From: a virus
Taxonomy: Duplodnaviria; Heunggongvirae; Uroviricota; Caudoviricetes
DNA length: 64,000 nt
Direction: 5' to 3' (one strand)
Virus record (IMG/VR): IMGVR_UViG_3300035696_001272
The first letter of the stretch is position 1; each line of letters starts with the position of its first letter. The translations under genes and the position numbers were made by a program. The notes beneath the pieces were generated by a model, which was not told the DNA's origin, made no database searches, and was given only the letters and a program-made list of their open reading frames with translations. This document shows, in pieces, positions 2 through 34,803 of this stretch.

Positions 2-289
2 AGCACCAAGTCCATCAACTATTGTGATGTCAAGGGCTCTTATTGGGCACAAGGCAGCAACAAGACCGCTTATTTGTTCTTAGGTGATGTGGCCTTCGGT
101 AATCAGAAGATTGCTGGCGGGTCTCATATGTATACCAAGAACAATATCAAACCAAACCACTCTGTGTGGGCTAAGTCTGGTGGATCTTCTGGATTGTACA
201 ACGATGAGTTGATTACCTACACTGCCACTGGTCCCGAGCAACAACACGCTATCCGCTATATCATTGAATTCGAAACTCAGGTGAAGTGA
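2..289 (+). CDS. PARP-family ADP-ribosyltransferase, C-terminal catalytic fragment (5' end lies upstream of the window)
   Basis: Frame is open from the window edge. STKSINYCDV..LFLGDVAFGN..HSVWAKSGG..LYNDELITYT..YIIEFE parallels the PARP1 C-terminus (SKSANYC..LLGEVALGN..HSVKGLG..LLYNEYIVYD..YLLKLKF), including the catalytic Glu. Confidence 0.6.
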   Translation, partial: STKSINYCDVKGSYWAQGSNKTAYLFLGDVAFGNQKIAGGSHMYTKNNIKPNHSVWAKSGGSSGLYNDELITYTATGPEQQHAIRYIIEFETQVK

Positions 290-660: not shown

Positions 661-970
661 AATATTGCAGGGAGAATTAGTTTACCTTTTCGAAGGTCGT
701 GGCGACGTTGATCAAACTGAAGGCCGTGGCGGCACTCGATGTGTTGGATGGTATCTTTCTCGTAAAGATGCTGAAAACGCCGTTAAGAATGAAGGTGTAA
801 TGGGTACACCTGGCTATGTCAAATCTCATCAGGCACTTGCTGTACGAATGGATAATGGCGATTTTCAATACTACAAAATTGAAAAGCTGGAAGTTGAAAC
901 TGTGGAAACCGCTCGTCAACGTGCGCTGGCCAAGCTAACTCCAGAAGAGAAGAAATTATTGGGCTTATGA
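653..970 (+). CDS. hypothetical protein
   Basis: ATG at 653 is in frame within the 569..970 ORF and avoids most of the overlap; no motif. Confidence 0.4.
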   Translation: MVEILQGELVYLFEGRGDVDQTEGRGGTRCVGWYLSRKDAENAVKNEGVMGTPGYVKSHQALAVRMDNGDFQYYKIEKLEVETVETARQRALAKLTPEEKKLLGL

Positions 971-1446
971 TTGAAATAGTAACGGGTGATCTTTTCGAAG
1001 CCACTGAAAAATATCTTTGTCATCAATGCAATTGTGTGACTAACAAGGCCGCACACTTAGCAAAAGATATGTTCGAGAAGTTCCCACATTCTGACATCTA
1101 CACTGCACGCACCGAAGCTGACAAGCCCGGTCATATCATCATTCGTGGTGATGGTCAGAATGAAAGATTCGTTGTCGCTTTACTCGGTCAGTATTATCCC
1201 GGTCGACCAAAGTACCCTCTTTCCAATTTAGATGGTTCTGCGGTTCGCGAGAAATACTTCTACCGTTGCTTGCTGCGCCTGGCCAAAGTGCCCGACTTGG
1301 AAAGTATAGCATTCCCCTGGCGCATTGGGTGCGGTGCGGCAGGTGGTGATTGGGAACATTACCTTGGCAATATTACTAACTTTGCTCAATATGTTGGTGA
1401 AAAAGGAGTCAAAGTGCGTATTTACAGGCGTGAGGGAGACGAGTAA
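967..1446 (+). CDS. macro domain protein, TARG1/OARD1-like (ADP-ribose glycohydrolase family)
   Basis: ATGA overlap; MIEIVTGDLFEA..LCHQCNC...FPWRIGCGAAGGDWEHY matches the OARD1 pattern GDLF..HC..C...PRIGCGLD.L.WE. Confidence 0.6.
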   Translation: MIEIVTGDLFEATEKYLCHQCNCVTNKAAHLAKDMFEKFPHSDIYTARTEADKPGHIIIRGDGQNERFVVALLGQYYPGRPKYPLSNLDGSAVREKYFYRCLLRLAKVPDLESIAFPWRIGCGAAGGDWEHYLGNITNFAQYVGEKGVKVRIYRREGDE

Positions 1447-1757: not shown

Positions 1758-2189
1758 ATGGCAATCAAATTCTATCGTACCAAAGACCCTTATGGTTTCC
1801 TTGGAAACTATTACCGAGCCCGAATGTTCATTTATGGGCGCTGGTGGAATTGGAATGAACAGCCTTACCAGGCCGCTAAGACTACCGTTCAATCTGAGAT
1901 TGATGCTATCTGGGCGGCTCCGAAGGCCAATGAGTCTCGCCTTTTGGGACAAAAAGTAACCATGCGCCCCGATTGGGATCAAGTCAAACGTCAGGTTATG
2001 AAAGAGTGTTGCATGGCTAAGTTCTTGCAACATCCAGAATTGCGTAAGCAGCTAATGGAAACTGGTGACCAAGAACTTATTGAAGACTCCCCGGTAGATT
2101 GGTATTGGGGAATTGGCGCTGATGGTAAAGGCCAAAATGTGCTCGGCCAAGTTTTAATGGAGATTCGAGAGGAGTTAAAAGGTGAGTGA
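1758..2189 (+). CDS. NADAR (YbiA-like, DUF1768) domain protein
   Basis: TAAGGAGA RBS; FLGNYY..WNWNEQPYQAAK...RPDWDQVKRQVM...DSPVDWYWGIGADGKGQNVLGQVLMEIR matches the NADAR signature (EHAYQAAKF...DW...D..WG.G.DG.G.N.LG). Confidence 0.65.
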   Translation: MAIKFYRTKDPYGFLGNYYRARMFIYGRWWNWNEQPYQAAKTTVQSEIDAIWAAPKANESRLLGQKVTMRPDWDQVKRQVMKECCMAKFLQHPELRKQLMETGDQELIEDSPVDWYWGIGADGKGQNVLGQVLMEIREELKGE

Positions 2190-6400: not shown

Positions 6401-6715
6401 ATGAACATTAAGACTAAAGCCAAAGAATGGCTAATTCAACACGAGCATTACGAACATGAACCATCGTTCAACGATGATTTGGAAAGTCTATCAAAGCTAA
6501 TCGAGAGTATTGCGTATTATGAGGGCGTCCTTTCTGATGAGCCCGAATATGATGAAACATTTGGTGATAACAAAACTTGTGAGTGTGGCTGCGCATATTA
6601 TCGCCATTTCGACACTTATTCTAATATGGATGCTGTTGGTTGCAAATATTGTTACCATGGCGATCACTATGGTGACAATTGTTGTGCTGGTTTCAGAGAA
6701 AGAAAAGAAGCGTGA
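6401..6715 (+). CDS. hypothetical Cys/His-rich metal-binding protein
   Basis: CECGC..C.YCYHGDHYGDNCC. Confidence 0.4.
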   Translation: MNIKTKAKEWLIQHEHYEHEPSFNDDLESLSKLIESIAYYEGVLSDEPEYDETFGDNKTCECGCAYYRHFDTYSNMDAVGCKYCYHGDHYGDNCCAGFRERKEA

Positions 6716-7197
6716 TTGTTGCATTCACTGGCCACAGACCAGATAAGTTGGGAGGTTACAAGGTACCCAATCCAATGTACATCAAGGTCTGCAGAGAAAT
6801 TGACAAGGTTCTAAGGGAGCTGAAGCCAGAGAAAGTTATCACTGGAATGGCTTTGGGTGTGGATCAGTGGGCAGCCATGATTGCTCACAAGATGGAGATT
6901 CCATTCCTTGCCGCCATCCCTTTTGAAAAGCAAGAGGCCAAATGGCCTGAGCAAAGCCAAAAGACTTACCGTCTTTTACGCAAGCTAGCCTCGGAAGAAG
7001 TTATCGTAAGTCCTGGCGGTTATTCTGCCGACAAAATGCAGACTAGAAACAAGTGGATGGTGGACCATTGTGATAAACTTATCGCAATATGGGATGGATC
7101 TTCTGGTGGCACCGGCAATTGTATCAATTATGCGAAATCTATTAAAAGGGAAATCATTTATATCGATCCCAAAGCCACTACTACAACTGGAGTGTAA
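6679..7197 (+). CDS. YpsA/DUF1273-family SLOG-superfamily protein
   Basis: VIVAFTGHRP..GVDQWAAMIA..IPFEKQEAKWPEQSQKTYRLL..NKWMVDHCDKLIAIWDGSSGG parallels B. subtilis YpsA (TGYKP..GVELWAAEAA..ITPFYEQEKNWKEPNKEQYEAVL..NQWFIDKSDGLLLLYDPEKEGS). Confidence 0.55.
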   Translation: MLCWFQRKKRSVIVAFTGHRPDKLGGYKVPNPMYIKVCREIDKVLRELKPEKVITGMALGVDQWAAMIAHKMEIPFLAAIPFEKQEAKWPEQSQKTYRLLRKLASEEVIVSPGGYSADKMQTRNKWMVDHCDKLIAIWDGSSGGTGNCINYAKSIKREIIYIDPKATTTTGV

Positions 7198-8430
7198 ATG
7201 AGCACTTATCAGCCTAATAAATTCCGTGTTTATTCAAAGCAAGACGTAGCAAGACTAAAAGGTTCTTTTGATATCGAATATACGCTCGCCAAGATGGGCG
7301 CTAACAGATTATGGCAACTATTCAATACGCAGCCATATGTTAAAGCCTTAGGAGCATTAACTGGAAATCAAGCCGTTCAACAGGTGAAAGCTGGATTGGA
7401 TGCCGTTTATCTTTCTGGTTGGCAAGTGGCAGCTGACGCTAATCTGGCCGGTCAAATGTATCCTGATCAATCCTTGTACCCTGCCAACAGCGTCCCTAAT
7501 GTGGTTAAGAAGGTCAATTCGGCTCTAATGAGGGCTGATCAGATTGAACATTCTGAAGGCGGTACACAAAGATATTGGATGGCTCCTATCATCGCTGACG
7601 CAGAGGCCGGCTTTGGTGGTCCTCTTAATTCATTCGAATTAATGAAGGCAATGATTGAAGCTGGAGCTGCTGGCGTTCACTTTGAAGACCAACTATCCTC
7701 TGAGAAGAAGTGTGGACATATGGGTGGCAAAGTTTTAGTCCCCATGTCTCATTTTATCAAGTCTTTGGTAGCAGCCAGGCTAGCCGCTGACATTTGCGGC
7801 ACTGATACCATTATCGTGGCTAGAACAGATGCCGACTCTGCTAAACTCCTGACTTCCAACATTGACGAAAAGGATTTACCATTTATTCTTTCAGATATTC
7901 GTACAGAAGAAGGATTTTACAAAATCAAAAGTGGTATGGAGTATTGCGTAGCCAGAGGCTTAGCCTTTGCCCCATATGCCGACATGCTTTGGATGGAAAC
8001 TTCCACTCCAGACATTGGACAGGCCAAAGAATTTGCCCAAGAGATTCATAAACAGTTTCCTAACAAACTTTTGATGTATAATTGTTCTCCTTCTTTCAAT
8101 TGGAAGAAAAACTTGACCGAATCTCAAATTGCCTCTTTCCAAGATGAATTAGGTTCATTTGGCTATAAATTCCAGTTCGTTACCCTGGCTGGCTTTCATG
8201 CTCTAAATCATTCCATGTTTTCTTTATCCAAGAATTACAGAGAGCAAGGCATGACTGCTTATGCCGCTTTACAAGAACAAGAGTTCGAGAACGTGGCCGC
8301 TGGATATACTGCCGTAAAACACCAACATGAAGTTGGTGCTAGTTATTTTGACGAAGTTTCCAAACTAGTTTCGGGTGGCTCTAGTGCTACCGTTGCTTTA
8401 GAGGGATCTACTGAAGAAAAACAATTCTAA
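7198..8430 (+). CDS. aceA: isocitrate lyase
   Basis: 410 aa; KKCGHMGGK signature; long colinear identity with E. coli AceA ([58 protein letters not shown]). Confidence 0.9.
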
Positions 8431-9947
8431 TGTATGTGCAAGATATAGACAAATATAGTGTCGTATTGACTGACGAAGCAATCAATTTTGTAGTAGATTT
8501 AGTAGAAAAGTTTTCTCCTAGAGTCAAATCAATATTAGGGCTGCGTCAGCTTATGGCTGGTAAAAGGCCCAGTTTCTTAGCTTATTCCTCTTATATTCGA
8601 GAATCTGATTGGACTGTTGCACCATTACCAGCGGACCTATTAGATAGGCGAGTTGAGATTACTGGACCAACAGATCGCAAGATGATCATCAATGCACTCA
8701 ATTCTGGTGCCAATGTTTTCATGGCCGACTTGGAGGACTCTAATTCTCCAACCTGGGAAAACATGATGCAAGGTCAGATTAATTTGATGGATGCCGTCCG
8801 TCGCACTATTATCTTTACTTCTGAAGCAGGTAAGCTCTATCAACTCAATGAAAAGACTGCTGTTTTAATGGTAAGGCCACGAGGCTGGCATTTAGTAGAA
8901 AAACATTTTCTGGTCAACGATCAGCCTATTCCAGGCGCTTTGTTAGACTTTGGGCTGTACTTTTTCCATAATGCCAAAGAGTTGATGGCTCGTGGTACCG
9001 CTCCATATTTTTATCTTCCCAAGATGGAAAATCATCTGGAGGCCAAATTATGGAACGATATTTTCACATACGCTCAAGCTAAGCTTGGTATTCCAGTTGG
9101 AACCATTAAAGCTACTTGCCTAATCGAAACTATTAGTGCTGCCTTTGAAATGAATGAAATCTTATGGGAATTGAAAGATCATTCGGCTGGCCTCAATTGT
9201 GGTCGTTGGGATTACATTTTTAGCTTCATTAAGAGATTTGCCAAAGATCCAAATTTTATCCTGCCAGATCGTTCTCAGTTGACCATGGACAAGGGCTTTC
9301 TCAATGCTTACGTTCGTCTCTTAATACAGACCTGTCATCGAAGAAATGTGCATGCTATGGGTGGAATGGCGGCGCAAATCCCCATTAAAAACGATGAGAT
9401 GGCAAATAAGAAAGCTCTTGCTAAAGTGGCTTCCGACAAAATGCGTGAGGTTCAGGCCGGTCATGATGGTACTTGGGTCGCTCATCCTGGATTAGTTTCA
9501 TTGGCCCGTGATATTTTTGACCATGATATGCCTGCATCTAATCAAATACAGAAGATACCTAGCTATGTTGTAACAGAAGCGGATCTGTTAACAGTTCAAG
9601 AAGGAACCTACACCGAAGAAGGCTTGCGACACAATATTAGGGTAGGCGTTATTTATTTAGAATCTTGGTTGAATGGAAATGGTTGCGTGCCAATATATAA
9701 TCTAATGGAGGACGCGGCCACAGCAGAACTGTCTCGCGCCCAGGTTTGGCAAGGCATCTATCACCAGGTTATAATAGGTGACAAACCATTAACCAAGGAG
9801 CTTTTCTTACAGATTCTTGATGAAGAAATGAATAACATTCAAAAGGGCAATCGCTTCTTAGAAGCCCGCGAATTATTTATTAAATTATCAACGGCCCCAG
9901 AATTTGAAGAATTTCTTACACTTATAGCTTATAATAACTTGACATAA
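8430..9947 (+). CDS. aceB: malate synthase A
   Basis: TAATG overlap; 505 aa; FMADLEDSNSPTW, YFYLPKMEN, GTIKATCLIET, GLNCGRWDYIFS, GGMAAQIP, GHDGTWVAHPGL, EDAATAELSRAQVWQ colinear with E. coli AceB. Confidence 0.9.
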   Translation: MYVQDIDKYSVVLTDEAINFVVDLVEKFSPRVKSILGLRQLMAGKRPSFLAYSSYIRESDWTVAPLPADLLDRRVEITGPTDRKMIINALNSGANVFMADLEDSNSPTWENMMQGQINLMDAVRRTIIFTSEAGKLYQLNEKTAVLMVRPRGWHLVEKHFLVNDQPIPGALLDFGLYFFHNAKELMARGTAPYFYLPKMENHLEAKLWNDIFTYAQAKLGIPVGTIKATCLIETISAAFEMNEILWELKDHSAGLNCGRWDYIFSFIKRFAKDPNFILPDRSQLTMDKGFLNAYVRLLIQTCHRRNVHAMGGMAAQIPIKNDEMANKKALAKVASDKMREVQAGHDGTWVAHPGLVSLARDIFDHDMPASNQIQKIPSYVVTEADLLTVQEGTYTEEGLRHNIRVGVIYLESWLNGNGCVPIYNLMEDAATAELSRAQVWQGIYHQVIIGDKPLTKELFLQILDEEMNNIQKGNRFLEARELFIKLSTAPEFEEFLTLIAYNNLT

Positions 9948-9954
9948 TAGTATT

Positions 9955-10041
9955 GCCATTGTGGCGGAACAGGCAGACGCGCTGGTCTCAAAAATCAGTG
10001 TCCGCAAGGACGTGTGGGTTCGACTCCCACCAATGGCACCA
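9955..10041 (+). tRNA. tRNA-Leu(CAA), type II, encoded CCA
   Basis: Acceptor GCCATTG/CAATGGC; anticodon stem CTGGT/ATCAG with loop CTCAAAA; long variable arm; T-arm GGGTTCGACTCCC; architecture as E. coli tRNA-Leu. Confidence 0.8.
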
Positions 10042-10072
10042 AGATTCTTGATTTATATTATAGGAAGGTCAT

Positions 10073-11473
10073 ATGGCTGATAAAGACGTTCAGGTCTGGA
10101 GAGAAGGCTCTTCAGGCGAACCCAAGTTTCCAGTTAAGTTTGATGTTCTGAAGAAAGCAATTCTTCAAGTAACTGATATCGGTACCAATCGTAATAAGTA
10201 TTATGCCATCGAGTTACATGAGGCTGGTAACAAATACCGAGTCTATACTCATTATGGACGAACGGACGATTTAGATTCTAATCCTGATGCTGGCATTCGT
10301 GAATGTCGTTATCCAGTAAATCTAATTCATGCTGAGAATTTGTATGAAAAGATTTACAAAGAGAAAACTTCTGCTCGTAAAGGTTACAAGGAATTAAATG
10401 TGGCTTCAGCCAAAATTGGTTCCAAACAAACTCTTGGTAAGAGTAGCGGTGAAGTAGACGACAAGACTCTCAAGAAGATGGCTAAAGTTCAGGCAACTGT
10501 AGTCAAAGATGCAGCTCCACCCGTTGCTATTCCTAAAGAGGTTCAGAAGCTAGTTACTCATTTATATGATGAAGCAACTAAGACACTGACTAAAAAGGTT
10601 AATGCTACAATTACCGCTAACGGTATCGAAACTCCTCTTGGTGTTTTGACAATCGGCCAGATCGAAAAGGGCGAAAAGATTCTAGAAGAAATTGCATCTT
10701 CCCTCAAAAAGAAAAACGATGTTCTCTCTAATTTGAGTGGGCAATTCTACACGGTTATTCCCCATAAATTGGGACGTTCTAAAATTGATGTTTTAGATGC
10801 CATTATCAATACAACATCCAAAGTTAAGGAAAAAGAGGATACCTTGCAACTCATGCGAGATATGCTTAACGTAAGCGGTAAAGGCGCAAACGTTTTAGCC
10901 AATCCCAAAGTTGAAAAGCAGTATCTGGCCCTCGGTTGTGAAATTGGTTACCTGGATAAAAACCATGACGATTTCAAGAAGATCAAATCTTCTGTTAAGG
11001 GTTACAGTAACTCTATCAAAAACATTTTCACCATAAAGAGACCTGACGAGCACAAAGCCTTCACCACCAACATTTCTAACCATAAACTCTTGTTCCATGG
11101 TTCTGGTGCCCACAATTGGGTTGGTATTCTGTCTCGTGGCTTGATGTTACCAAAGATGGTCACTAAATTTGGAGTTCATCGTACTGATGAGGGTTGGTTA
11201 GGTCACGGCATTTATTTCGGAGACGTTATCGACACCGCTCTAAATTATGCTTCCAGCGGTAAATTAGACTCTACTTTCGTAGCCATTGCTAAAGTGGCTT
11301 TAGGCAAGATTAAGAAATACAAAGTAGTTACTTATGGTTTAACTTCTCCTCCAAAGGGATACCATAGTTGTCATGGTGACCCAACTGGATATTCAGAGTT
11401 TGATGATCATGAATTTGTTATCTATGATACGAAACAGCAGCGTTTGGAGTATTTACTAGAACTCGACTGGTGA
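10073..11473 (+). CDS. PARP-like ADP-ribosyltransferase (WGR - helical regulatory - catalytic domain)
   Basis: GGAAGG RBS; WGR-like NKYYAIELHEAGNKYRVYTHYGRTD; helical-domain LSGQFYTVIPHKLG; catalytic HGSGAHNWVGILSRGL, GHGIYFGD, HEFVIYD (H-Y-E triad). Confidence 0.7.
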   Translation: MADKDVQVWREGSSGEPKFPVKFDVLKKAILQVTDIGTNRNKYYAIELHEAGNKYRVYTHYGRTDDLDSNPDAGIRECRYPVNLIHAENLYEKIYKEKTSARKGYKELNVASAKIGSKQTLGKSSGEVDDKTLKKMAKVQATVVKDAAPPVAIPKEVQKLVTHLYDEATKTLTKKVNATITANGIETPLGVLTIGQIEKGEKILEEIASSLKKKNDVLSNLSGQFYTVIPHKLGRSKIDVLDAIINTTSKVKEKEDTLQLMRDMLNVSGKGANVLANPKVEKQYLALGCEIGYLDKNHDDFKKIKSSVKGYSNSIKNIFTIKRPDEHKAFTTNISNHKLLFHGSGAHNWVGILSRGLMLPKMVTKFGVHRTDEGWLGHGIYFGDVIDTALNYASSGKLDSTFVAIAKVALGKIKKYKVVTYGLTSPPKGYHSCHGDPTGYSEFDDHEFVIYDTKQQRLEYLLELDW

Positions 11474-11477
11474 AGAC

Positions 11478-11939
11478 ATGAATTTAAGAAATTTGTTGAC
11501 CTTGACAATTCAAAGATTAAGTTTTAACTTGGTTGCTCAACGTCCCGGCCTCGTGGAAGAACTCCGCAAATTAACTATAGAGCCATTCTCAGGAATGAAT
11601 CATGAGTTAAATTGGATGCTTAGAGAGGCTAAAGAGCGAGAGATTGATTGCGATATATTTTTAGCTTATCGCTCTCAAAGTCTAGTCGGTTGGGCACTCT
11701 TGTCAAAAGAAGACACTGATTTCGTCTTTGCCAACTCTTATGAGCCTTTCAGGTCTGAAAATGGTTGGCTCTTTCAAGTGTTCATTGACCCTGACCATCG
11801 GAGACAAGGAATTGCCTCTGAACTGTTAAAGAGAGCCCAAAATCTAATTGGAGACGGCACCCTTTGTATCTGTCCCTGGGACGAAGTAAGTAGAGGGTTT
11901 TACAGTTCACTCAATCTTAGTAATGCGAGACACTTATGA
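11478..11939 (+). CDS. GNAT-family N-acetyltransferase
   Basis: FQVFIDPDHRRQGIASELLKRA motif A. Confidence 0.55.
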   Translation: MNLRNLLTLTIQRLSFNLVAQRPGLVEELRKLTIEPFSGMNHELNWMLREAKEREIDCDIFLAYRSQSLVGWALLSKEDTDFVFANSYEPFRSENGWLFQVFIDPDHRRQGIASELLKRAQNLIGDGTLCICPWDEVSRGFYSSLNLSNARHL

Positions 11940-12511
11940 TATACAACACCATTGAAGAACTGGCCAAATATCTAGAAAGTTATAATTTGCCTTATAGGCA
12001 TCTTGTAGCAACGTCTGGCGGCTTCGATCCCATTCACATCGGGCACTTACGCTGCATCCAGCAATCCAAGCAAAGTCTTCACGATATTTTGGTAGTGATT
12101 GTTAACGGTGATGGATTCCTCACTCGTAAGAAGGGTAAGCCCTTCATGCCTCTTGCTGAGCGTATGGAGATAATTGATGGCCTTCGTGGTGTTGATTTTG
12201 TCACCACTTGGGATGATGGCTCACAGAATGTTATAGGTGCCCTGGAAATTCTAAAACCACATCTTTTCGCTAAGGGTGGTGATAGGTCTTCGGCTGATAA
12301 GGTTCCCGAAGCTGAAGTTTGCGCCAAAATTGGTTGCACGATTTTGTATGGTGTTGGTGGAACTGATAAGGTTCAATCAAGTAGCAACCTTATCAAAAAC
12401 TCAAAAGAAGATAAAATCAAATATCTTGATCCTAATTGTGAACATAATTGGGTATTGGATGGACATAATGCTGGTGAAGGCATTTGCTCCAAGTGTTTGA
12501 AGAGAGAATAA
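11936..12511 (+). CDS. cytidylyltransferase-superfamily nucleotidyltransferase, HldE/RfaE domain II (heptose-1-P adenylyltransferase)-like
   Basis: ATGA overlap; GGFDPIHIGH (HxGH); VNGDGFLTRKKGKPFMPLAERMEIIDGLRGVDFV and FAKGGD...SSSNLIKN parallel E. coli HldE C-domain ([36 protein letters not shown]...VKGGD...STTNIIKK). Confidence 0.55.
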   Translation: MIYNTIEELAKYLESYNLPYRHLVATSGGFDPIHIGHLRCIQQSKQSLHDILVVIVNGDGFLTRKKGKPFMPLAERMEIIDGLRGVDFVTTWDDGSQNVIGALEILKPHLFAKGGDRSSADKVPEAEVCAKIGCTILYGVGGTDKVQSSSNLIKNSKEDKIKYLDPNCEHNWVLDGHNAGEGICSKCLKRE

Positions 12512-12525
12512 AACATAGCAATAAT

Positions 12526-12535
12526 CTGATATATA
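12526..12535 (+). promoter_or_regulatory. extended -10 element CTGATATATA upstream of the tRNA-Leu cluster
   Basis: TGnTATATA 11 nt before the first tRNA; an identical 10-mer recurs at 15488 before the second tRNA cluster. Confidence 0.4.
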
Positions 12536-12546
12536 CAACACACAAT

Positions 12547-12630
12547 GCTACCGTGGTGGAATGGCAGACACGCTGGTCTTAGAAGCCAGTGCCGCGAGGC
12601 GTGAAGGTTCGAGTCCTTTCGGTAGCACCA
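12547..12630 (+). tRNA. tRNA-Leu(UAG), type II, encoded CCA
   Basis: Acceptor GCTACCG/CGGTAGC; anticodon loop CTTAGAA; long variable arm. Confidence 0.8.
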
Positions 12631-12633
12631 ATT

Positions 12634-12720
12634 GTTCATGTGGTGGAATGGCAGACACACTAGTCTCAGAAGCTAGGGTCCGTAAGGACATTGAGGGTTC
12701 AAGTCCCTCCAGGAACACCA
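12634..12720 (+). tRNA. tRNA-Leu(CAG), type II, encoded CCA (A-G mismatch at acceptor pair 5-68)
   Basis: Acceptor GTTCATG/CAGGAAC; anticodon stem CTAGT/GCTAG with loop CTCAGAA. Confidence 0.7.
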
Positions 12721-12726
12721 AAATAT

Positions 12727-12813
12727 CTCATCGTGGTGGAATGGTATACACACTAGGCTGAGAACCTAGGGCTCGAAAGGGCCGTGAGGGTTCGAGTCCC
12801 TCCGATGAGACCA
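12727..12813 (+). tRNA. tRNA-Leu(GAG), type II, encoded CCA
   Basis: Acceptor CTCATCG/CGATGAG; anticodon stem CTAGG/CCTAG with loop CTGAGAA. Confidence 0.75.
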
Positions 12814-12824
12814 AGGAAGTTATT

Positions 12825-13109
12825 ATGTTATTCGATGAATTCTGTGAATGTCGCTGCCATACAAGCGGCAATATCAAGTATATTGTAGCTTGCTGCCATA
12901 CTTGTTCTTATTGTCATAAGAAAGTTAAGACGCATGCTTATGTTGAACATCAAAAGGAATGTTCTGATAAGCACGATCCAAAAATAAATGGTGTGCGACT
13001 AACAGAGATTCTAAGTGCTCTCAAAACACTTGAAGATGCCGATATTGATATCACTAGCATCAGCGCTCAGGTTAGCAAGTTATTTGCCAGCGCATTGAGC
13101 GAAGAATAA
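12825..13109 (+). CDS. hypothetical Cys-rich zinc-finger protein
   Basis: AAGGAAG RBS; CECRCH...CCHTCSYCH. Confidence 0.4.
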   Translation: MLFDEFCECRCHTSGNIKYIVACCHTCSYCHKKVKTHAYVEHQKECSDKHDPKINGVRLTEILSALKTLEDADIDITSISAQVSKLFASALSEE

Positions 13110-14057
13110 TCAGAATCCAGGTCCAAAGTCACCAGGCTTGCGCTGTTGTTGCCGTTGTTGCTGGGGCTGTTGTGCTTGTTGTTGCTTTTGCTTTTGTCTC
13201 GTATTCATGTAGACATTAGCATTATCATCATAGACCATAGCTTTTCCAGTAGCAAACTCAGGTTCACGCTTCAAATACTCAAAGGCTAATTCGTTGCTTA
13301 TGCCCGGATTATCTACGCTTTTCTTATAGATATCTAATGCGGACTGTGTGATGTGGCCTAATGCTCCATCTGTGTTTACTCCCAACATAGCCTGAAACTT
13401 TTTGTCAATTGGCGGATACTTTGACTTATGTTGTTGGGCCACAGGTGCCTGTTGCACTTTTGGAGGCATTATATTCACGTTACTGAACATTGTAGGAATG
13501 CCGCCACCAAACCATGGAGTTGGAGTTTGTTGCGTCTGAGCTTCTTTTACAGACCCACTTTTAACTTTTTTTTTAGAAAGATCGCATCCGATCTTGTGCT
13601 CTAGGTGCTCTAGATCAAGACCTTTGCCGCCACACTCTGGACACCTTGCTTCAGGCATAAAATTGGCGTACTTAGAAAGCAACAAGTCAATTTCCTCAAA
13701 AGAAGACTTTTTAGACTTCTTATCACTCTTACCAATAGATGGATACTTAGAATGAACTTTACGGCTTACCAAAGCTTGTAATCCCTTTAGAGAGCCCTTG
13801 TACCATTCTGGCACAGAGCTATATTGATGAACACGAGCTAAAGCATTACGTGCTTGATCTTCGTCATTAATTGGAAAATGATCTTTTTTATCCTTAGCTG
13901 ATTCAGCTGGTACACAGACAGTTCCTCTATTACGGACCTTAGCCTTTGGATCTAGCTTCTTCTTTTCCTTTTTCTTAGCTGTGGCAAGCAAGGATTCAGT
14001 AGCTAAATGTTCATAATTTACGGCCATTTTAATTAATTGGTCTGGACTGTAGGACAT
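13110..14057 (-). CDS. hypothetical protein (Lys-rich with Gln-rich C-terminal tail; CPECGGKG knuckle)
   Basis: 315 aa minus-strand ORF starting with ATG (MSYSP) between two plus-strand genes. Confidence 0.45.
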   Translation of the reverse strand: MSYSPDQLIKMAVNYEHLATESLLATAKKKEKKKLDPKAKVRNRGTVCVPAESAKDKKDHFPINDEDQARNALARVHQYSSVPEWYKGSLKGLQALVSRKVHSKYPSIGKSDKKSKKSSFEEIDLLLSKYANFMPEARCPECGGKGLDLEHLEHKIGCDLSKKKVKSGSVKEAQTQQTPTPWFGGGIPTMFSNVNIMPPKVQQAPVAQQHKSKYPPIDKKFQAMLGVNTDGALGHITQSALDIYKKSVDNPGISNELAFEYLKREPEFATGKAMVYDDNANVYMNTRQKQKQQQAQQPQQQRQQQRKPGDFGPGF

Positions 14058-14102
14058 TAAAAACCTCGATATATTCTGTATACTAATAATTAGGCAATAT
14101 TA

Positions 14103-14636
14103 TTGCTACATTTATGGTGTTCATTCGTGGTTGCATTTAATAACGAAGAAAGTTTGTTAGCTTGGGCAGCGGGCCTGTTCGATGGTGAAGGAACCATTTA
14201 TTCTGCTAATGGTAGGGTTAGAGCTTCTGTGCATATGACTGACCTTGATGTATTAGAAACTTTTCATTCTAATTTCGGTGGAGCCATACATAAATGTAAG
14301 AAGCAAAAAGAACATCATAAGGAATCTTGGCGATGGTCATTACAAGCCTCTAGTGAGGCCGTGAATTTTCTGAAAAAGATTTTACCGTTTTTACATAATC
14401 GAAGGACAAAGAGAGCAAAAGAAGCGATAGAATACTATAACATAGTGGAACAGCAACAAAAAGACAAACAAGGTAAAGTATTAGAGTTAAGAAGTAAAAT
14501 TGCAAAAATGAGTAAAAGTGGTATGACGCACAAGGACATATCAATATTATTCAATGTAGATAGAAGTTATGTAACACGTATTTTGAATGGAAAATATGGT
14601 GATGTGAGGGAGCTGGTTGAACCCGGTACTCTGTGA
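14103..14636 (+). CDS. LAGLIDADG-type homing endonuclease with C-terminal HTH (non-ATG start; exact 5' end uncertain)
   Basis: LLAWAAGLFDGEGTIYS LAGLIDADG-like motif; C-terminal GMTHKDISILFNVDRSYVTRIL HTH; the 3' end overlaps tRNA-His. Confidence 0.5.
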   Translation: MLHLWCSFVVAFNNEESLLAWAAGLFDGEGTIYSANGRVRASVHMTDLDVLETFHSNFGGAIHKCKKQKEHHKESWRWSLQASSEAVNFLKKILPFLHNRRTKRAKEAIEYYNIVEQQQKDKQGKVLELRSKIAKMSKSGMTHKDISILFNVDRSYVTRILNGKYGDVRELVEPGTL

Positions 14637-14675
14637 AAGTATCTCTGACGGGATCGTAACCCGTACATCACCCCA
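14598..14675 (+). tRNA. tRNA-His(GUG) with encoded G-1 and CCA
   Basis: G-1 then acceptor GTGATGT/ACATCAC; discriminator C; anticodon stem GTACT/AGTAT with loop CTGTGAA; T-arm ACGGGATCGTAACCCGT. Confidence 0.75.
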
Positions 14676-14678
14676 ACT

Positions 14679-14752
14679 GGTCTGTTCGTCTAATGGTAGG
14701 ACAAAGCGCTTTCAATGCTTGAACAGGAGATCGATACTCCTACAGATCACCA
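14679..14752 (+). tRNA. tRNA-Glu(UUC), encoded CCA
   Basis: Acceptor GGTCTGT/ACAGATC; D-arm GTCTAATGGTAGGAC; anticodon stem AAGCG/TGCTT with loop CTTTCAA. Confidence 0.75.
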
Positions 14753-14974
14753 ATGAAAAAACTTGCTTTCTTAGTAGTACTTGGATTTATCTTTGTTGCT
14801 TGTCATACAAATATTACTGCAGCCAATGCGCCAAAGGGATCTATTTTATGCGGTAATGATTCGGGATGTCCAGATGATTACTACTGTGGATTTGCTGGAG
14901 TAGATCAGCCAGCCACTTGTATTTATTCTCCTGGTTATCAAATAATGGAGTGGGAAAGCCACACAGGTCGTTAA
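14753..14974 (+). CDS. small secreted Cys-rich protein, probable lipoprotein
   Basis: MKKLAFLVVLGFIFVAC signal peptide with lipobox-like VAC; 8 Cys in 73 aa. Confidence 0.45.
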   Translation: MKKLAFLVVLGFIFVACHTNITAANAPKGSILCGNDSGCPDDYYCGFAGVDQPATCIYSPGYQIMEWESHTGR

Positions 14975-14979
14975 TAAAC

Positions 14980-15055
14980 GGCCCCATCATCTAATGGTTT
15001 AGGATGAGAGACCTTCACTCTCTTCATATGGGTTCGAATCCCATTGGGGTCGCCA
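14980..15055 (+). tRNA. tRNA-Glu(UUC)-like with a noncanonical anticodon loop CCTTCAC (C at position 33), encoded CCA
   Basis: Acceptor GGCCCCA/TGGGGTC; Glu-type D-arm ATCTAATGGTTTAGGAT; anticodon stem AGAGA/TCTCT; T-arm ATGGGTTCGAATCCCAT. The alternative register gives loop ACCTTCA (Lys CUU), also with C33. Confidence 0.55.
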
Positions 15056-15463
15056 ATGAAGTATTTTTTATTTTTAAGTCTATTGTTAGCTTTTAGTTGT
15101 ACACAAAATACTCCTGCTGTTCCTTTATTGGAAACTTCACCAGTTCCCGTACAAGTTGCTTTAGGTACCGATGGTAAATTATATTGGCGCTGTCAGTTAC
15201 AAGGATTGAATCAAGACTCAGTGCGAGTCAGTTGTAATTTTCACAACCAATCTATCGATACTCTTAATAGCTGCATTAGAGTTTCCTATTACGATAATGC
15301 AGATGGCCATCTAGTTGCTCAAAGTCACCAAATTTGTTCTGGTTCTTTGACACCTGGCACTTCTAGTGATAAAGTAGCAATATTTATGGAAAATAGCCGC
15401 AGGGCTTTACAAAACTGCGGGGAATCGTTAAATTTGTGTGTGATGTTGGCGGGCGATCATTAA
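15056..15463 (+). CDS. secreted protein or lipoprotein
   Basis: MKYFLFLSLLLAFSCTQ signal peptide; 135 aa; several Cys. Confidence 0.45.
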   Translation: MKYFLFLSLLLAFSCTQNTPAVPLLETSPVPVQVALGTDGKLYWRCQLQGLNQDSVRVSCNFHNQSIDTLNSCIRVSYYDNADGHLVAQSHQICSGSLTPGTSSDKVAIFMENSRRALQNCGESLNLCVMLAGDH

Positions 15464-15487
15464 AGTAATAAATCGCCTACTAATAAG

Positions 15488-15497
15488 CTGATATATA
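15488..15497 (+). promoter_or_regulatory. extended -10 element CTGATATATA upstream of the second tRNA cluster
   Basis: Identical 10-mer to 12526; 9 nt before tRNA-Glu(CUC). Confidence 0.4.
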
Positions 15498-15506
15498 GGA
15501 TACACT

Positions 15507-15581
15507 GGCCCATTCGTCTAACGGTTAGGACGGCAGCCTCTCAAGTTGTTAATACGGGTTCGATTCCCGTATGGGTCGCCA
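15507..15581 (+). tRNA. tRNA-Glu(CUC), encoded CCA
   Basis: Acceptor GGCCCAT/ATGGGTC; D-arm GTCTAACGGTTAGGAC; anticodon stem GCAGC/GTTGT with loop CTCTCAA. Confidence 0.7.
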
Positions 15582-15592
15582 AGTAAGTTTAT

Positions 15593-15668
15593 GCGCCTGT
15601 AGCTCAATGGATAGAGCATTCGGTTTCTACCCGACAGGTTGGGGGTTCAAGTCCCTCCAGGCGTGCCA
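15593..15668 (+). tRNA. tRNA-Arg(UCU), encoded CCA
   Basis: Acceptor GCGCCTG/CAGGCGT; D-arm GCTCAATGGATAGAGC; loop TTTCTAC; 27-43 mismatch. Confidence 0.7.
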
Positions 15669-15679
15669 AGTTAATTTAT

Positions 15680-15755
15680 GTGCCTGTAGCTCAATGGATA
15701 GAGCGTTGGTCTACGAAACCAAAGGTTGTGAGTTCAACCCTCACCAGGCATACCA
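15680..15755 (+). tRNA. tRNA-Arg(ACG), encoded CCA
   Basis: Acceptor GTGCCTG/CAGGCAT; anticodon stem TTGGT/ACCAA with loop CTACGAA. Confidence 0.8.
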
Positions 15756-15757
15756 AA

Positions 15758-16204
15758 ATGAAAATCTGCACGAAGTGCAAATTCGATTATCCTGCACCAT
15801 TAGAAGAATATTTTAGTAAGAAGTCTTGCACTAAAGATGGGTTCCAATACCAATGCAAAAAGTGTTGGACAGATGCTCATAAAGAGCATTACAAAGAAAA
15901 TAAGACCTACTATAAAAAGAAAGCTCGCAAACATAACGCAGAGTATAGATTAAGAAATCTCCAATACATGGTAGATTATCTTAAAGAACATTCTTGTGTG
16001 GATTGCGGAGAAAATAATCCAATCTTACTAGATTTTGATCATGTCAGAGGCACTAAGATTACCAATGTTAGTAGAATGGTGTCATTGAATCCGAATTTGG
16101 AAGTAATCAAAGCAGAAATTGAAAAATGTGAAGTGCGCTGTGTAAAATGTCACAGACTAAAAACAGCCATTCAATTAGGGTGGTATAAAGGCATTAAGTT
16201 GTAA
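15758..16204 (+). CDS. HNH homing endonuclease
   Basis: Start taken at the ATG just after the tRNA CCA. Cys pairs CTKCKF...CKKC; HNH core CVDCGENNPILLDFDHVRGTK...CVKCHRLKT. Confidence 0.6.
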   Translation: MKICTKCKFDYPAPLEEYFSKKSCTKDGFQYQCKKCWTDAHKEHYKENKTYYKKKARKHNAEYRLRNLQYMVDYLKEHSCVDCGENNPILLDFDHVRGTKITNVSRMVSLNPNLEVIKAEIEKCEVRCVKCHRLKTAIQLGWYKGIKL

Positions 16205-16207
16205 TAC

Positions 16208-34782: not shown

Positions 34783-34803
34783 AAGTTTTAATGAGGTAAT
34801 GTT

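What the first reader, a model, noticed from the sequence alone, without database searches (positions are those of the whole stretch)
10073..12511. Second, full-length WGR-HD-ART PARP followed by a GNAT and an HldE-domain-II-like adenylyltransferase
A 466-aa protein has a WGR-like N-domain, the PARP helical regulatory signature (FYTVIPHKLG) and a catalytic domain with an intact H-G-S / Y / E triad. This is a PARP1-like catalytic fragment architecture in a phage.

It is translationally coupled to a GNAT acetyltransferase. Next comes a 191-aa HxGH nucleotidyltransferase that aligns convincingly with the ADP-heptose-forming C-domain of HldE, an enzyme that makes ADP-sugars.

Together with the first module this makes two PARPs in 64 kb. 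The adenylyltransferase could serve the distant glycan island or could touch ADP-sugar/NAD chemistry.
Basis: partly seen in the sequence, partly recalled or inferred. Interest (0 to 1): 0.7.

Follow-up and report, generated by a model that had tools for sequence, protein, structure and literature searches.

The report
Vault-PARP-like ADP-ribosyltransferase in a megaphage
A huge bacteriophage carries a real, intact PARP-type enzyme whose catalytic half most resembles the human vault enzyme PARP4, so it probably adds single ADP-ribose units, and the two enzyme genes next to it are neighbours rather than proven partners.

Summary
The three ORFs are real. ORF 10073-11473 is a WGR / helical-domain / ART PARP with H342-Y381-E447, all invariant in 149 relatives. 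ORF 11478-11939 is a GNAT. ORF 11936-12511 is a HIGH-motif nucleotidyltransferase closest in sequence and fold to HldC/HldE domain II.

Three refinements:
- **PARP type.** The helical and catalytic part is PARP4 (vault PARP, clade 5)-like, not PARP1-like. It carries PARP4's acceptor-site substitutions (Thr for PARP1 K903, Asp for Y986), so mono-ADP-ribosylation is the likelier activity. Unlike PARP4 it keeps the WGR motif, here Y-G-R.
- **Family.** It is large: about 50% identical homologues occur in Myxococcota and Planctomycetota in a PARP-Macro operon, and in amoebozoan clade-5 PARPs. Phage PARPs as such are already published.
- **Trio.** It is not an obligate unit. Sister genomes have NTase-tRNA-GNAT without the PARP, PARP-GNAT without the NTase, or PARP alone. 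The PARP is a variable cassette inside a tRNA-Leu array.

The "first PARP" is a PARP1-like 500-aa gene cut by the window start. With a DarG-like macrodomain, NADAR and a SLOG protein it forms an NAD/ADP-ribose island. Verdict: a new member of a known kind, of moderate interest.

The parts
9955..10041 (+). tRNA-Leu(CAA). It forms the upstream border of the slot that holds the PARP cassette.
   Evidence: ARAGORN. The same tRNA precedes the PARP, or the GNAT where the PARP is absent, in L010, L093, L094, L023, L009, L181 and L182.
10073..11473 (+). PARP-B, a 466-aa WGR / helical-domain / ART ADP-ribosyltransferase. The SD AGGAAGG lies 7 nt upstream.
   Evidence: Pfam WGR, PARP_reg and PARP; PDB matches; AF2 model and Foldseek; 857 homologues.
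10154..10396 (+). WGR domain (aa 28-108). The TD..N.NKYY..EL and Y61-G62-R63 motifs are at nt 10253-10261.
   Evidence: Pfam 31.9 bits. YGR aligns with the WGR of PARP2 and PARP3. It is invariant in 149 sequences.
10529..10864 (+). PARP helical (regulatory) domain (aa 153-264), including FYTVIPHKLG.
   Evidence: PARP_reg E 3.5e-17; helices in the AF2 model; alignment to the PARP4 helical domain.
10970..11470 (+). ART catalytic domain (aa 300-466). Key residues: H342-G-S (nt 11096-11104), W375, Y381 (11213-11215), T388 (11234-11236; the PARP1 K903 position), Y392, D444-D445, E447 (11411-11413).
   Evidence: Acceptor-site criteria come from PMC10711553.
11478..11939 (+). GNAT acetyltransferase, 153 aa, starting 4 nt after the PARP stop.
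   Evidence: Acetyltransf_1 E 1.8e-10; conserved R-x-Q-G-I-A motif; a family of 212 proteins, those listed being about 153 aa, many on 0.3-0.5 Mb contigs.
11936..12511 (+). HIGH-motif nucleotidyltransferase, HldC/HldE-domain-II-like (191 aa). Its start overlaps the GNAT stop (ATGA). The C-terminal tail, nt 12431-12508, carries C-x-H...H...C-x2-C.
12547..12813 (+). Three tRNA-Leu genes (TAG, CAG, GAG) forming the downstream border of the slot.
   Evidence: ARAGORN. The same arrangement is seen in relatives.
2..289 (+). Context: the last 95 aa of PARP-A, a 500-aa PARP1/2-like WGR-HD-ART protein cut by the window start.
967..1446 (+). Context: a DarG/SCO6735/TARG1-like macrodomain.
   Evidence: A profile of 5 orthologues hits the DarG macrodomain 5m3i at E 3e-5, and other macrodomains. 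The PADLOC DarG hit is weak.
1758..2189 (+). Context: a NADAR domain protein.
   Evidence: Pfam NADAR E 2.4e-34.
6679..7197 (+). Context: a YpsA-type SLOG protein, a backbone gene of the island.
   Evidence: Pfam YpsA E 4.8e-18. Syntenic in relatives.

Best explanation
ORF 10073-11473 encodes an active, NAD+-consuming ADP-ribosyltransferase of the WGR / helical-domain / ART type.

- **Catalytic module.** It belongs with the vault-PARP (PARP4, clade 5) lineage. The donor site (H-Y-E, Y392) is intact. The acceptor site that PARP1 and PARP2 need for chain elongation is replaced as in PARP4. The enzyme most likely adds single ADP-ribose units (inferred).
- **WGR domain.** Unlike human PARP4, it keeps the Y/W-G-R motif and the other WGR hallmarks. 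Regulation by binding nucleic-acid ends, as in PARP1-3 and the Herpetosiphon PARP, is the most likely control (inferred).
- **Genomic setting.** The gene is a variable cassette inserted between tRNA-Leu genes in the accessory region of a roughly 477-kb phage. It belongs to a wider NAD/ADP-ribose toolkit there:
  - a second, PARP1-like PARP;
  - a DarG-like macrodomain;
  - a NADAR protein;
  - a SLOG protein;
  - a metallophosphoesterase;
  - an NAD-dependent ligase.
  The macrodomain and NADAR are plausible erasers.
- **Neighbours.** The GNAT and the HldC-like nucleotidyltransferase are co-transcribed neighbours. Comparative genomics shows they persist without the PARP, so they are probably independent accessory enzymes rather than steps of one pathway.
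For: Domain identity and intact, invariant catalytic residues.

PARP4 affinity:
- 151 bits and 34% identity over 287 aa to PARP4, against 87-98 bits to PARP1/2.
- Reciprocally, PARP4 scores only 88, 82 and 55 bits to PARP1, PARP2 and PARP3.
- The whole family scores 156-196 bits to PARP4.
- The nearest long relatives are amoebozoan BRCT-WGR-HD-PARP-ankyrin proteins, from Cavenderia and Heterostelium, at 42-47% identity.
- Foldseek gives TM 0.79 to the PARP4 CAT against about 0.70-0.73 to the PARP1 CAT.

Acceptor site:
- T388 sits at Y381+7 (PARP1 K903, PARP4 T484).
- D445 sits at E447-2 (PARP1 Y986, PARP4 D545).
- W375 sits at the PARP1 M890 position.
- T388 and D445 are each conserved in 148 of 149 sequences, and W375 in all 149.
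- K903A converts PARP1 to a mono-transferase (PMC10711553).

WGR: YGR is invariant.

Writer-eraser logic:
- In 110 of 135 high-GC, mostly bacterial, loci a Macro gene follows the PARP.
- In low-GC loci the neighbour can be ARH or NAPRTase.

Island and variable cassette.
Against: - No biochemistry exists for any member of this family.
- H-Y-E enzymes from bacteria (Herpetosiphon, C. difficile) do make PAR (PMC8120803). The acceptor-site argument is transferred from one human enzyme.
- In human PARP4 the WGR is thought not to bind nucleic acid. No ligand is shown here.
- The tight PARP/GNAT spacing and the ATGA overlap of GNAT and NTase fit co-expression. The NTase is next to the PARP in two different gene orders. 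A functional link therefore cannot be excluded.
- The targets are unknown.
Confidence: 0.6

Rival explanations
1. It is a true poly(ADP-ribose) polymerase that works like PARP1/2 or the Herpetosiphon PARP. On this view DNA breaks activate it through the WGR and helical domains, and it builds PAR chains on itself and on host or phage proteins.
For: - It has the same three-domain architecture and an intact H-Y-E triad.
- The full-length model matches PARP1 and PARP2 on DNA breaks.
- Bacterial WGR-reg-cat PARPs make PAR in vitro.
Against: - The PARP1 K903 position is Thr and the Y986 position is Asp, as in the mono-transferase PARP4. Each is conserved in 148 of 149 sequences.
- The catalytic domain is much closer to PARP4 than to PARP1/2.
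- The usual bacterial partner is a MacroD-type Macro domain. No PARG was seen among the neighbouring genes that were scanned.
Confidence: 0.2
2. PARP, GNAT and nucleotidyltransferase form one pathway. The NTase would make an ADP-linked sugar or an NAD-like dinucleotide that feeds or follows the PARP reaction. The GNAT would acetylate the ADP-ribose product or the same target.
For: - The three genes are packed head to tail with no terminator between them.
- NTase, PARP and GNAT are neighbours in L093 and L094 in a different order.
- GNAT follows the PARP in 5 genomes.
- Contigs of equal length appear in the GNAT, NTase and PARP hit lists, for example a 1,194-bp contig in the NTase and GNAT lists.
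- An unrelated sugar-1-P nucleotidyltransferase lies near the PARP in L002.
Against: - L181 and L182 keep NTase-tRNA-GNAT with no PARP.
- L010 and L007 have no NTase, and L023 has no GNAT.
- None of the 130-plus more distant PARP loci has either gene.
- All genomes showing the linkage belong to one closely related phage clade, so inherited gene order explains it.
- By fold the NTase is HldC/cytidylyltransferase-type. No NMNAT appears in the top 50.
Confidence: 0.12
3. The nucleotidyltransferase serves glycan synthesis. It would activate a manno-configured sugar-1-phosphate, either heptose-1-P to ADP-heptose or mannose-1-P to an NDP-mannose, for the sugar island at 44.8-61.9 kb.
For: - The best sequence, PHROG and fold matches are HldE domain II / HldC.
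- It has a KGGD motif like HldC.
- Relatives are fused to a mannose-6-P-isomerase-type cupin and sit beside a phosphomannomutase.
- The glycan island has GDP-mannose 4,6-dehydratase, but no sugar-1-P nucleotidyltransferase was found among the ORFs scanned.
Against: - It scores 74 bits against the 181.5-bit equivalog cut-off.
- No GmhA, HldA or GmhB was found among the window ORFs scanned.
- It lies 32 kb from the island. In relatives it always sits in the NAD/ADP-ribose and tRNA region.
- The dehydratase needs GDP-mannose, and HldC-type enzymes use ATP.
Confidence: 0.3
4. PARP-B acts on RNA rather than on DNA or protein. On this view it senses or ADP-ribosylates broken tRNA or RNA ends as part of the phage tRNA maintenance and repair system.
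For: - The gene sits inside the tRNA-Leu array in every close relative, and beside tRNAs in L002.
- The window also encodes a polynucleotide kinase, several RNA ligases, a CCA-adding enzyme and TyrRS.
- Thg1 and PheRS lie upstream.
- Eukaryotic relatives are fused to Alba/Rpp20 or to PNKP domains.
- Some human PARPs modify RNA ends (abstracts).
Against: - The evidence is purely positional. tRNA arrays in large phages collect many unrelated accessory genes; ICL, malate synthase and OmpA occupy the same region.
- No RNA-binding domain is present beyond the WGR.
Confidence: 0.12

Closest known systems
Human PARP4 (vault PARP, clade 5) and the amoebozoan clade-5 PARPs
   Same: - It is the closest solved structure for the helical and ART domains: 151 bits, 34% identity, TM 0.79.
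- It shares the H-Y-E triad.
- It shares the acceptor-site substitutions (Thr at the PARP1 K903 position, Asp at the Y986 position).
- It has a WGR domain in front of the helical domain.
- Amoebozoan BRCT-WGR-HD-PARP-ankyrin proteins are 42-47% identical.
   Different: - It has no BRCT, VIT, vWA or vault-binding domain, and is 466 aa against about 1,700 aa.
- It keeps the Y-G-R motif, which human PARP4 has lost (F-L-L).
- W375 replaces PARP4 N471.
- It is phage-encoded.
PARP1/PARP2/PARP3 catalytic fragment (WGR-HD-ART, clade 1) and the bacterial PARPs of Herpetosiphon aurantiacus and C. difficile CD160
   Same: - It has the same three-domain order.
- It has the 'YGR' variant of the WGR motif typical of bacterial PARPs.
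- It has the H-Y-E triad.
- The full-length fold matches PARP1 and PARP2 bound to DNA breaks.
   Different: - Similarity to the catalytic domain is lower: 49-58 bits for the ART alone, against 128 bits to PARP4.
- It lacks the K903 and Y986 equivalents needed for elongation.
- The neighbouring PARP-A, not this protein, is the clade-1-like one.
PARPs of cultured jumbo phages (Xanthomonas XacN1 and Xoo-sp13, Stenotrophomonas CM1 and RAS14, Klebsiella 05F01, Cellulophaga phi4:1)
   Same: These are phage-encoded WGR-HD-ART or ART proteins already annotated as PARP. They are noted in the literature (PMC7824862, PMC4245714).
   Different: They are only 24-26% identical to PARP-B. In the ART region they are closer to PARP-A, up to 44%. 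No cultured-phage record holds a PARP-B-type protein above about 27% identity.
HldC / HldE domain II (D-glycero-beta-D-manno-heptose-1-phosphate adenylyltransferase)
   Same: - It gives the best NCBIfam, PHROG, PDB-sequence and fold matches.
- It shares the HxGH, KGGD and C-terminal S-S-S/S-T-T motifs.
   Different: - The score is well below the equivalog cut-off.
- The first motif is GGFDPxHxGH.
- A subset, including this one, has an extra Cys/His tail.
- No heptose-pathway partner was found among the window ORFs scanned.
- Relatives in T4-like cyanophages are 34-42% identical and have no known function.

Membership tests
PARP catalytic family (Pfam PF00644, H-Y-E class) | ART fold matching PF00644 above the gathering score. 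| tested here: met
   99.8 bits against 26.7. Foldseek gives E about 1e-21 to 1e-25 to PARP catalytic domains.
PARP catalytic family (Pfam PF00644, H-Y-E class) | His, Tyr and Glu of the NAD+ donor site. | tested here: met
   H342, Y381 and E447 align with the PARP4 triad and are invariant in 149 sequences.
WGR-HD-ART PARPs (PARP1-3 type architecture) | A WGR domain with the W/Y-G-R motif, N-terminal to the helical domain. | tested here: met
   PF05406 31.9 bits against 22. Y61-G62-R63 aligns with the WGR of PARP2 and PARP3.
WGR-HD-ART PARPs (PARP1-3 type architecture) | A PARP regulatory helical domain between the WGR and the ART. | tested here: met
   PF02877 63.2 bits against 26.8. Helices 155-287 in the model.
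Poly(ADP-ribose)-forming PARPs (PARP1/2-like) | Acceptor-site residues needed for elongation: Lys at the PARP1 K903 position, Leu-Tyr at 985-986, Met at 890. | tested here: not met
   T388, D444-D445 and W375 occupy these positions. Criteria come from PMC10711553. Conservation is shown.
Poly(ADP-ribose)-forming PARPs (PARP1/2-like) | DNA-break-dependent synthesis of PAR chains. | not testable with these tools
   This needs purified protein, NAD+ and DNA or RNA ligands.
PARP4 / clade 5 (vault PARP) | The catalytic module is closer to PARP4 than to any other PARP clade. | tested here: met
   151 bits against at most 98 bits. Reciprocally, PARP4 scores at most 88 bits to other solved PARPs. Amoebozoan clade-5 proteins are among the top hits. 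No formal tree was built.
PARP4 / clade 5 (vault PARP) | BRCT at the N-terminus, and VIT, vWA and a vault-interaction region at the C-terminus. | tested here: not met
   Pfam finds only WGR, PARP_reg and PARP in 466 aa.
   No such family appears in the Pfam, NCBIfam, PDB or fold searches.
GNAT acetyltransferases | The GNAT fold profile and the acetyl-CoA pyrophosphate loop (R/Q-x-x-G-x-A/G). | tested here: met
   PF00583 41.6 bits against 20.7. R108-x-Q110-G111-I112 is invariant and residue 113 is Ala or Gly. No specific subfamily reached its cut-off.
HldE domain II / HldC (heptose-1-P adenylyltransferase equivalog, TIGR02199) | A score above the curated equivalog cut-off. | tested here: not met
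   74.3 bits against 181.5.
HldE domain II / HldC (heptose-1-P adenylyltransferase equivalog, TIGR02199) | A HIGH-motif Rossmann fold closest to HldC. | tested here: met
   5xf2 is the top hit, TM 0.80 and rmsd 2.2. 5x9q is the top hit by sequence.
HldE domain II / HldC (heptose-1-P adenylyltransferase equivalog, TIGR02199) | Presence of the other ADP-heptose pathway genes (GmhA, HldA or HldE-I, GmhB). | tested here: not met
   None were found among about 60 window ORFs scanned. The rest of the 477-kb genome was not seen.
NMN/NaMN adenylyltransferases (NadD, NadR, NadM) | The best profile or fold match falls to NMNAT families. | tested here: not met
   Only 16-19 bits to the NadD and NMNAT models. 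None appear in the Foldseek top 50.

The most novel reading that the evidence does not exclude
This family would be the prokaryotic and phage counterpart of the eukaryotic vault PARP lineage (clade 5). It is a minimal WGR-HD-ART mono-ADP-ribosyltransferase that still has a working nucleic-acid-sensing WGR domain.

In megaphages it would be paired with a PARP1-like polymerase and with erasers of nucleic-acid ADP-ribosylation (a DarG-like macrodomain and NADAR). Together these would mark DNA or RNA ends during infection.

If so, the catalytic module of PARP4 was exchanged between bacteria or phages and Amoebozoa. The family would also offer a simple model for the still unknown function of vault PARP.
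Probability: 0.2. Interest if true: 0.65.

Novelty: new member of a known kind. Interest (0 to 1): 0.4.

Why it matters
- **What is already known.** Phage and bacterial PARPs are documented, so a PARP in a phage is not new.
- **A second PARP lineage.** The evidence points to a PARP lineage in prokaryotes and phages that is vault-PARP-like and probably mono-transferring, alongside the known PARP1-like one. One megaphage carries both types.
- **Setting.** Both PARPs sit in an island with a DarG-like macrodomain and a NADAR protein, families whose characterised members reverse ADP-ribosylation of DNA bases.
- **Possible use.** The family could give a small, tractable enzyme for asking what PARP4-type enzymes do and where they came from.
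- **A caution.** Tight gene packing in a phage accessory region is not evidence of a shared pathway.

Tried and rejected
- **Search for the other PARP by phmmer** against the six-frame window found nothing. The first PARP is too divergent and is cut by the window edge. It was found by eye and recovered whole from the source contig.
- **Megablast of 7000-13000 against cultured phages** gave no match.
- **The first look-up of the 124-aa ORF** failed because of a start-codon difference.
- **IMG/VR scans** gave only 4 loci. The metagenome and genome scans were needed.
- **PADLOC** finds no defence-system model for the PARP, GNAT or NTase.
- **NMN adenylyltransferase idea for the NTase.** The GGFDPxHxGH motif and the NAPRTase next to the PARP in L032 suggested it. 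It was set aside on profile and fold evidence.
- **ADP-heptose pathway idea** was weakened because no partner genes were found.
- **'Conserved functional trio' idea.** It looked strong. It was rejected after the PARP-less loci L181 and L182.
- **Giant eukaryotic virus origin.** This was considered because of the amoebozoan relatives. It was rejected on Shine-Dalgarno enrichment, operon packing, PHROG content and a tmRNA in a relative.
- **GNAT subfamily assignment** failed: only generic GNAT matches were found.


Full report
**1. What is there**

Three head-to-tail ORFs occupy 10073-12511 on the + strand.

The first is 466 aa. It matches Pfam WGR (31.9 bits), PARP_reg (63.2) and PARP catalytic (99.8), all above their gathering scores. 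The motif FYTVIPHKLG, the H342-G-S motif, Y381 and E447 all align with the corresponding residues of PARP4. An AlphaFold model built on 25 homologues (pLDDT 75) matches full-length PARP1 and PARP2 WGR-CAT structures bound to DNA breaks at E about 1e-25.

The second ORF is 153 aa and is a GNAT. Acetyltransf_1 scores E 1.8e-10, and the acetyl-CoA loop R-x-Q-G-I-A is conserved.

The third ORF is 191 aa and is a HIGH-motif nucleotidyltransferase:
- Its best NCBIfam match is rfaE_dom_II, E 8e-21. At 74 bits it is below the 181.5-bit equivalog cut-off.
- Its best PHROG is the heptose kinase/adenylyltransferase family.
- Its best PDB sequence match is 5x9q.
- Its best fold match is HldC of Burkholderia pseudomallei, 5xf2, TM 0.80.

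The PARP has a good Shine-Dalgarno sequence. The GNAT starts 4 nt after the PARP stop. The NTase start overlaps the GNAT stop as ATGA. No terminator-like site lies between the genes.

**2. Source**

The exact protein occurs on a 476,653-bp contig. Relatives occur on 450-510-kb contigs, one of which NCBI names an uncultured Caudovirales phage, and on an IMG/VR contig of 458,729 bp.

The window also encodes:
- 11 tRNAs;
- TyrRS, a CCA-adding enzyme, a polynucleotide kinase, RNA ligases and HNH endonucleases, all with PHROG matches.

Shine-Dalgarno-like motifs precede 28% of ORFs against 8% of control positions. Half of the same-strand neighbours are 10 nt or less apart. A relative carries a tmRNA. 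This is a megaphage of bacteria. It is not a giant eukaryotic virus.

**3. The other PARP**

Window 2-289 is the C-terminal 95 aa of an ART protein. The source contig shows it is a 500-aa WGR / PARP_reg / PARP protein, here called PARP-A (L090:7821-9323).

- It is only 25% identical to the finding's protein, PARP-B.
- Its best solved relatives are PARP1 and PARP2, at 108 and 93 bits. PARP4 scores 24 bits.
- In that alignment it keeps the Lys and Met that correspond to PARP1 K903 and M890.

**4. PARP-B is vault-PARP-like**

Sequence and fold scores:

| Comparison | Score |
|---|---|
| PARP-B to PARP4 helical + catalytic fragment | 151 bits |
| PARP-B to PARP2 | 98 bits |
| PARP-B to PARP1 | 87 bits |
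| PARP-B to PARP4, ART alone | 128 bits |
| PARP-B to PARP1 / PARP2, ART alone | 49-58 bits |
| Human PARP4 to PARP1 / PARP2 / PARP3 | 88 / 82 / 55 bits |
| All 173 family loci to PARP4 | 156-196 bits, 33-40% identity |
| Foldseek TM, PARP4 CAT | 0.79 |
| Foldseek TM, PARP1 CAT | about 0.70-0.73 |

- BLASTP identity to PARP4 is 34% over 287 aa.
- PARP4 is closer to this phage protein than to any other solved human PARP.
- PARP-A gives no hit to PARP4 in the tblastn search.

An exhaustive search with the HD-CAT region finds many 1,600-2,500-aa proteins at 40-47% identity. Their domain orders include:
- BRCT-WGR-PARP_reg-PARP-ankyrin;
- Alba/Rpp20-WGR-PARP;
- BRCT-WGR-PARP followed by PNKP domains.

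The named ones are from Amoebozoa: Cavenderia fasciculata, Heterostelium album and Synstelium. This is the group in which Perina et al. describe an expansion of clade-5 (PARP4-like) PARPs (PMC4245714).

**5. Mono or poly?**

Frigon and Pascal (PMC10711553) attribute PARP4's restriction to mono-ADP-ribosylation to a disabled acceptor site. They also report that PARP1 K903A becomes a mono-transferase.

| PARP1 residue | PARP4 residue | PARP-B residue | How placed in PARP-B |
|---|---|---|---|
| K903 | T484 | T388 | Y381+7 |
| L985 / Y986 | E544 / D545 | D444 / D445 | E447-3 / E447-2 |
| M890 | N471 | W375 | Y381-6 |

It also follows from direct counting from the invariant Tyr and Glu.

Across 149 unique members (27 low-GC, 122 high-GC):
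- T388 and D445 are each conserved in 148 sequences, and W375 in all 149.
- H, G, S, Y381, Y392 and E447 are invariant.

The enzyme is under strong constraint, so it is very likely active. It most likely transfers single units. This is an inference from one human enzyme and has not been shown.

Unlike human PARP4, which has F-L-L, the WGR domain keeps Y-G-R. That is the bacterial variant of W-G-R (PMC5966428). It aligns with the WGR of PARP2 and PARP3 and is invariant. Control by nucleic-acid ends is therefore the most likely regulation, though it is inferred.

**6. Distribution and partners of the family**

PARP-B-type proteins at 48-57% identity are common in Myxococcota and Planctomycetota genomes. 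They occur on complete chromosomes of 9.07 and 8.26 Mb.

- In 110 of 135 high-GC loci, a 240-280-aa Macro-domain gene (PF01661) follows directly.
- In 70 of those loci, a roughly 845-aa protein comes next. It matches the PADLOC models WGR_XIII and HEAT-ARM_XIII.
- In low-GC, phage-like loci the gene after the PARP is variously an ADP-ribosylglycohydrolase, a nicotinate phosphoribosyltransferase, or an amidohydrolase plus a SpoU methylase.

The recurrent theme is a writer next to an eraser or next to NAD salvage.

Cultured-phage PARPs are only 24-26% identical to PARP-B and are nearer to PARP-A. These include XacN1, Xoo-sp13, and the Klebsiella, Stenotrophomonas and Cellulophaga phages. Phage PARPs were already pointed out by Iyer et al. 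(PMC7824862; PMC9503650) and by Perina et al..

**7. The neighbourhood in this phage clade**

Upstream of PARP-B in the window and its source contig lie:
- an NAD-dependent ligase with BRCT;
- PARP-A;
- a macrodomain at 967-1446, whose profile matches the DarG macrodomain 5m3i at E 3e-5;
- NADAR at 1758-2189;
- a metallophosphoesterase;
- a YpsA-type SLOG protein;
- isocitrate lyase, malate synthase and tRNA-Leu(CAA).

The block from PARP-A to YpsA is syntenic in the closest relatives.

In the close relatives examined that carry PARP-B, it sits inside the tRNA-Leu array. The order is tRNA-Leu(CAA), PARP-B, GNAT where present, then tRNA-Leu(TAG, CAG, GAG or AAG).

**8. Are PARP, GNAT and NTase one unit?**

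Evidence for a unit:
- The genes are tightly packed.
- GNAT follows PARP-B in five genomes.
- The listed members of the GNAT family (212 proteins) are all about 153 aa, and many lie on 0.3-0.5 Mb contigs like the source contig.
- In L093 (511 kb) and L094 the NTase lies on the other side. The order there is YpsA, NTase, tRNA-Leu(CAA), a 68-aa ORF, PARP, GNAT. The association therefore survives a rearrangement.

Evidence against a unit:
- L181 and L182 have YpsA, (ICL), NTase, tRNA-Leu(CAA), (a small ORF), GNAT, tRNA-Leu, with no PARP at all.
- L010 and L007 have PARP-GNAT without the NTase.
- L023 has the PARP without the GNAT.
- No distant PARP-B locus has either gene.

All linked cases belong to one closely related clade, so inherited gene order explains them. 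I conclude that PARP-B is a variable cassette in a syntenic accessory backbone. The GNAT and the NTase do not depend on it.

**9. The nucleotidyltransferase**

- Its family is large (1,596 hits) and highly conserved. The motifs are TSGGFDPxHxGH, NGDGFLxRKKG, WDDGSQ, KGGDR and QSSS.
- Most members are about 157 aa.
- A subset, including this one, has a C-terminal tail C-x-H-x6-H-x7-C-x2-C.
- Others are fused to a mannose-6-P-isomerase-type cupin and sit beside a phosphomannomutase and a Nudix protein.
- T4-like cyanophages have 34-42% identical homologues of unknown role.
- Fold and profile evidence place it with HldC and the cytidylyltransferases, not with the NMN adenylyltransferases.

The window's sugar island (44.8-61.9 kb) has:
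- GDP-mannose dehydratase;
- epimerases;
- two DegT aminotransferases;
- methyltransferases;
- GT2, GT6 and GT11 glycosyltransferases.

It has no heptose-pathway gene and no sugar-1-P nucleotidyltransferase. A role in activating a manno-configured sugar phosphate is the best guess at about 0.3. The substrate is open.

**10. Verdict**

The interpretation needs three corrections:
- The enzyme is PARP4-type and probably a mono-transferase, rather than a PARP1-like polymerase.
- The neighbours are independent accessory genes rather than a module.
- The first PARP is only partly in the window.

The finding is a new member of known kinds: phage and bacterial PARPs, phage GNATs, and phage HldC-like transferases. 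The features of more than routine interest are:
- the clade-5 affinity of a large prokaryotic and phage PARP family;
- the coexistence of PARP1-like and PARP4-like enzymes in one phage island;
- the presence there of a DarG-like macrodomain and a NADAR protein.

Noticed in passing
window 7198-8430 and 8430-9947: Isocitrate lyase and malate synthase, the glyoxylate shunt, are encoded back to back in the phage between the SLOG gene and tRNA-Leu(CAA). The lyase is 55-58% identical to enterobacterial AceA. Relative L181 has the lyase (81% identical) but no malate synthase. The other relatives in the PARP-B locus set have neither.
   Followed up: partly
window 2-289; whole gene in L090:7821-9323: The first PARP (PARP-A, 500 aa) is cut by the window start. 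It is PARP1/2-like and keeps the PARP1 K903 and M890 equivalents. It has an insertion of about 45 aa within the ART domain and an extra Asp before the catalytic Glu (LYNDE).
   Followed up: partly
window 967-1446 and 1758-2189: A DarG/SCO6735-like macrodomain and a NADAR protein lie just after PARP-A. Characterised members of both families reverse ADP-ribosylation of DNA bases. They could counter host DarT toxins or erase the phage's own PARP products.
   Followed up: partly
L041:11461-14824, and 110 of 135 high-GC loci (L101-L180): Myxococcota and Planctomycetota chromosomes carry a conserved operon: a PARP-B-type PARP, then a Macro domain protein, then a protein of about 845 aa. The last matches the PADLOC models WGR_XIII and HEAT-ARM_XIII, which by their names belong to type XIII retrons. 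I found no description of this operon in the papers searched.
   Followed up: partly
window 9955-16283, and L010, L093, L094, L007, L009: The tRNA array (Leu x4, His, Glu x3, Arg x3) keeps the same order across the clade. Protein-coding cassettes (PARP, GNAT, NTase, a LAGLIDADG-like ORF at 14103-14636 and others) are interspersed between the tRNA genes. The LAGLIDADG-like ORF overlaps tRNA-His by 38 nt.
   Followed up: no
L002:5906-5981 and 1524-1881: A 62%-identical PARP-B in a 30%-GC, 447-kb contig is preceded by a tRNA with anticodon CTA, which reads UAG. The locus also carries a tmRNA. This hints at stop-codon recoding in that relative.
   Followed up: no
window 12431-12508: The nucleotidyltransferase ends in a 26-aa tail, C-E-H-N-W-V-L-D-G-H-N-A-G-E-G-I-C-S-K-C. 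It is conserved in about a third of the closest homologues and absent from the rest. It looks like a small zinc-binding knuckle (model pLDDT 60-83).
   Followed up: partly
window 10391-10522 (PARP-B residues 107-150): The linker between the WGR and the helical domain is predicted disordered (pLDDT below 50). Yet it holds many residues invariant in 25 homologues (I115, G116, S117, G122, S124, G126, D129, T132, K135). It may be an interaction or automodification segment.
   Followed up: no
window 17951-19144, 25664-26812, 33270-35799, 36843-37604, 38293-39540, 42227-42892: A tRNA and RNA maintenance set is present: tyrosyl-tRNA synthetase, a CCA-adding-type nucleotidyltransferase, two polynucleotide-kinase-like proteins and three RNA-ligase-family proteins. 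Thg1, PheRS and an HD_4 protein lie upstream of the window (L090).
   Followed up: partly
window 44818-61869: The sugar-modification island on the minus strand (two of its ORFs lie on the + strand) has GDP-mannose 4,6-dehydratase, three further epimerase/reductases, two DegT aminotransferases, methyltransferases and a hexapeptide acyltransferase. It also has GT11, GT2 and an 802-aa methyltransferase-GT2-GT6 fusion. No nucleotidyltransferase was found in it.
   Followed up: partly
L023:3198-3674: The macrodomain orthologue in this relative contains one in-frame stop codon. This may be a pseudogene, a sequencing error or recoding.
   Followed up: no
window 6679-7197, 39553-40092, 61935-62375: The YpsA-type SLOG protein also gives a weak match to ShosA of the Shosta defence system. 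An Hsp20 and a NifU-like iron-sulfur scaffold protein are also encoded in the window.
   Followed up: no
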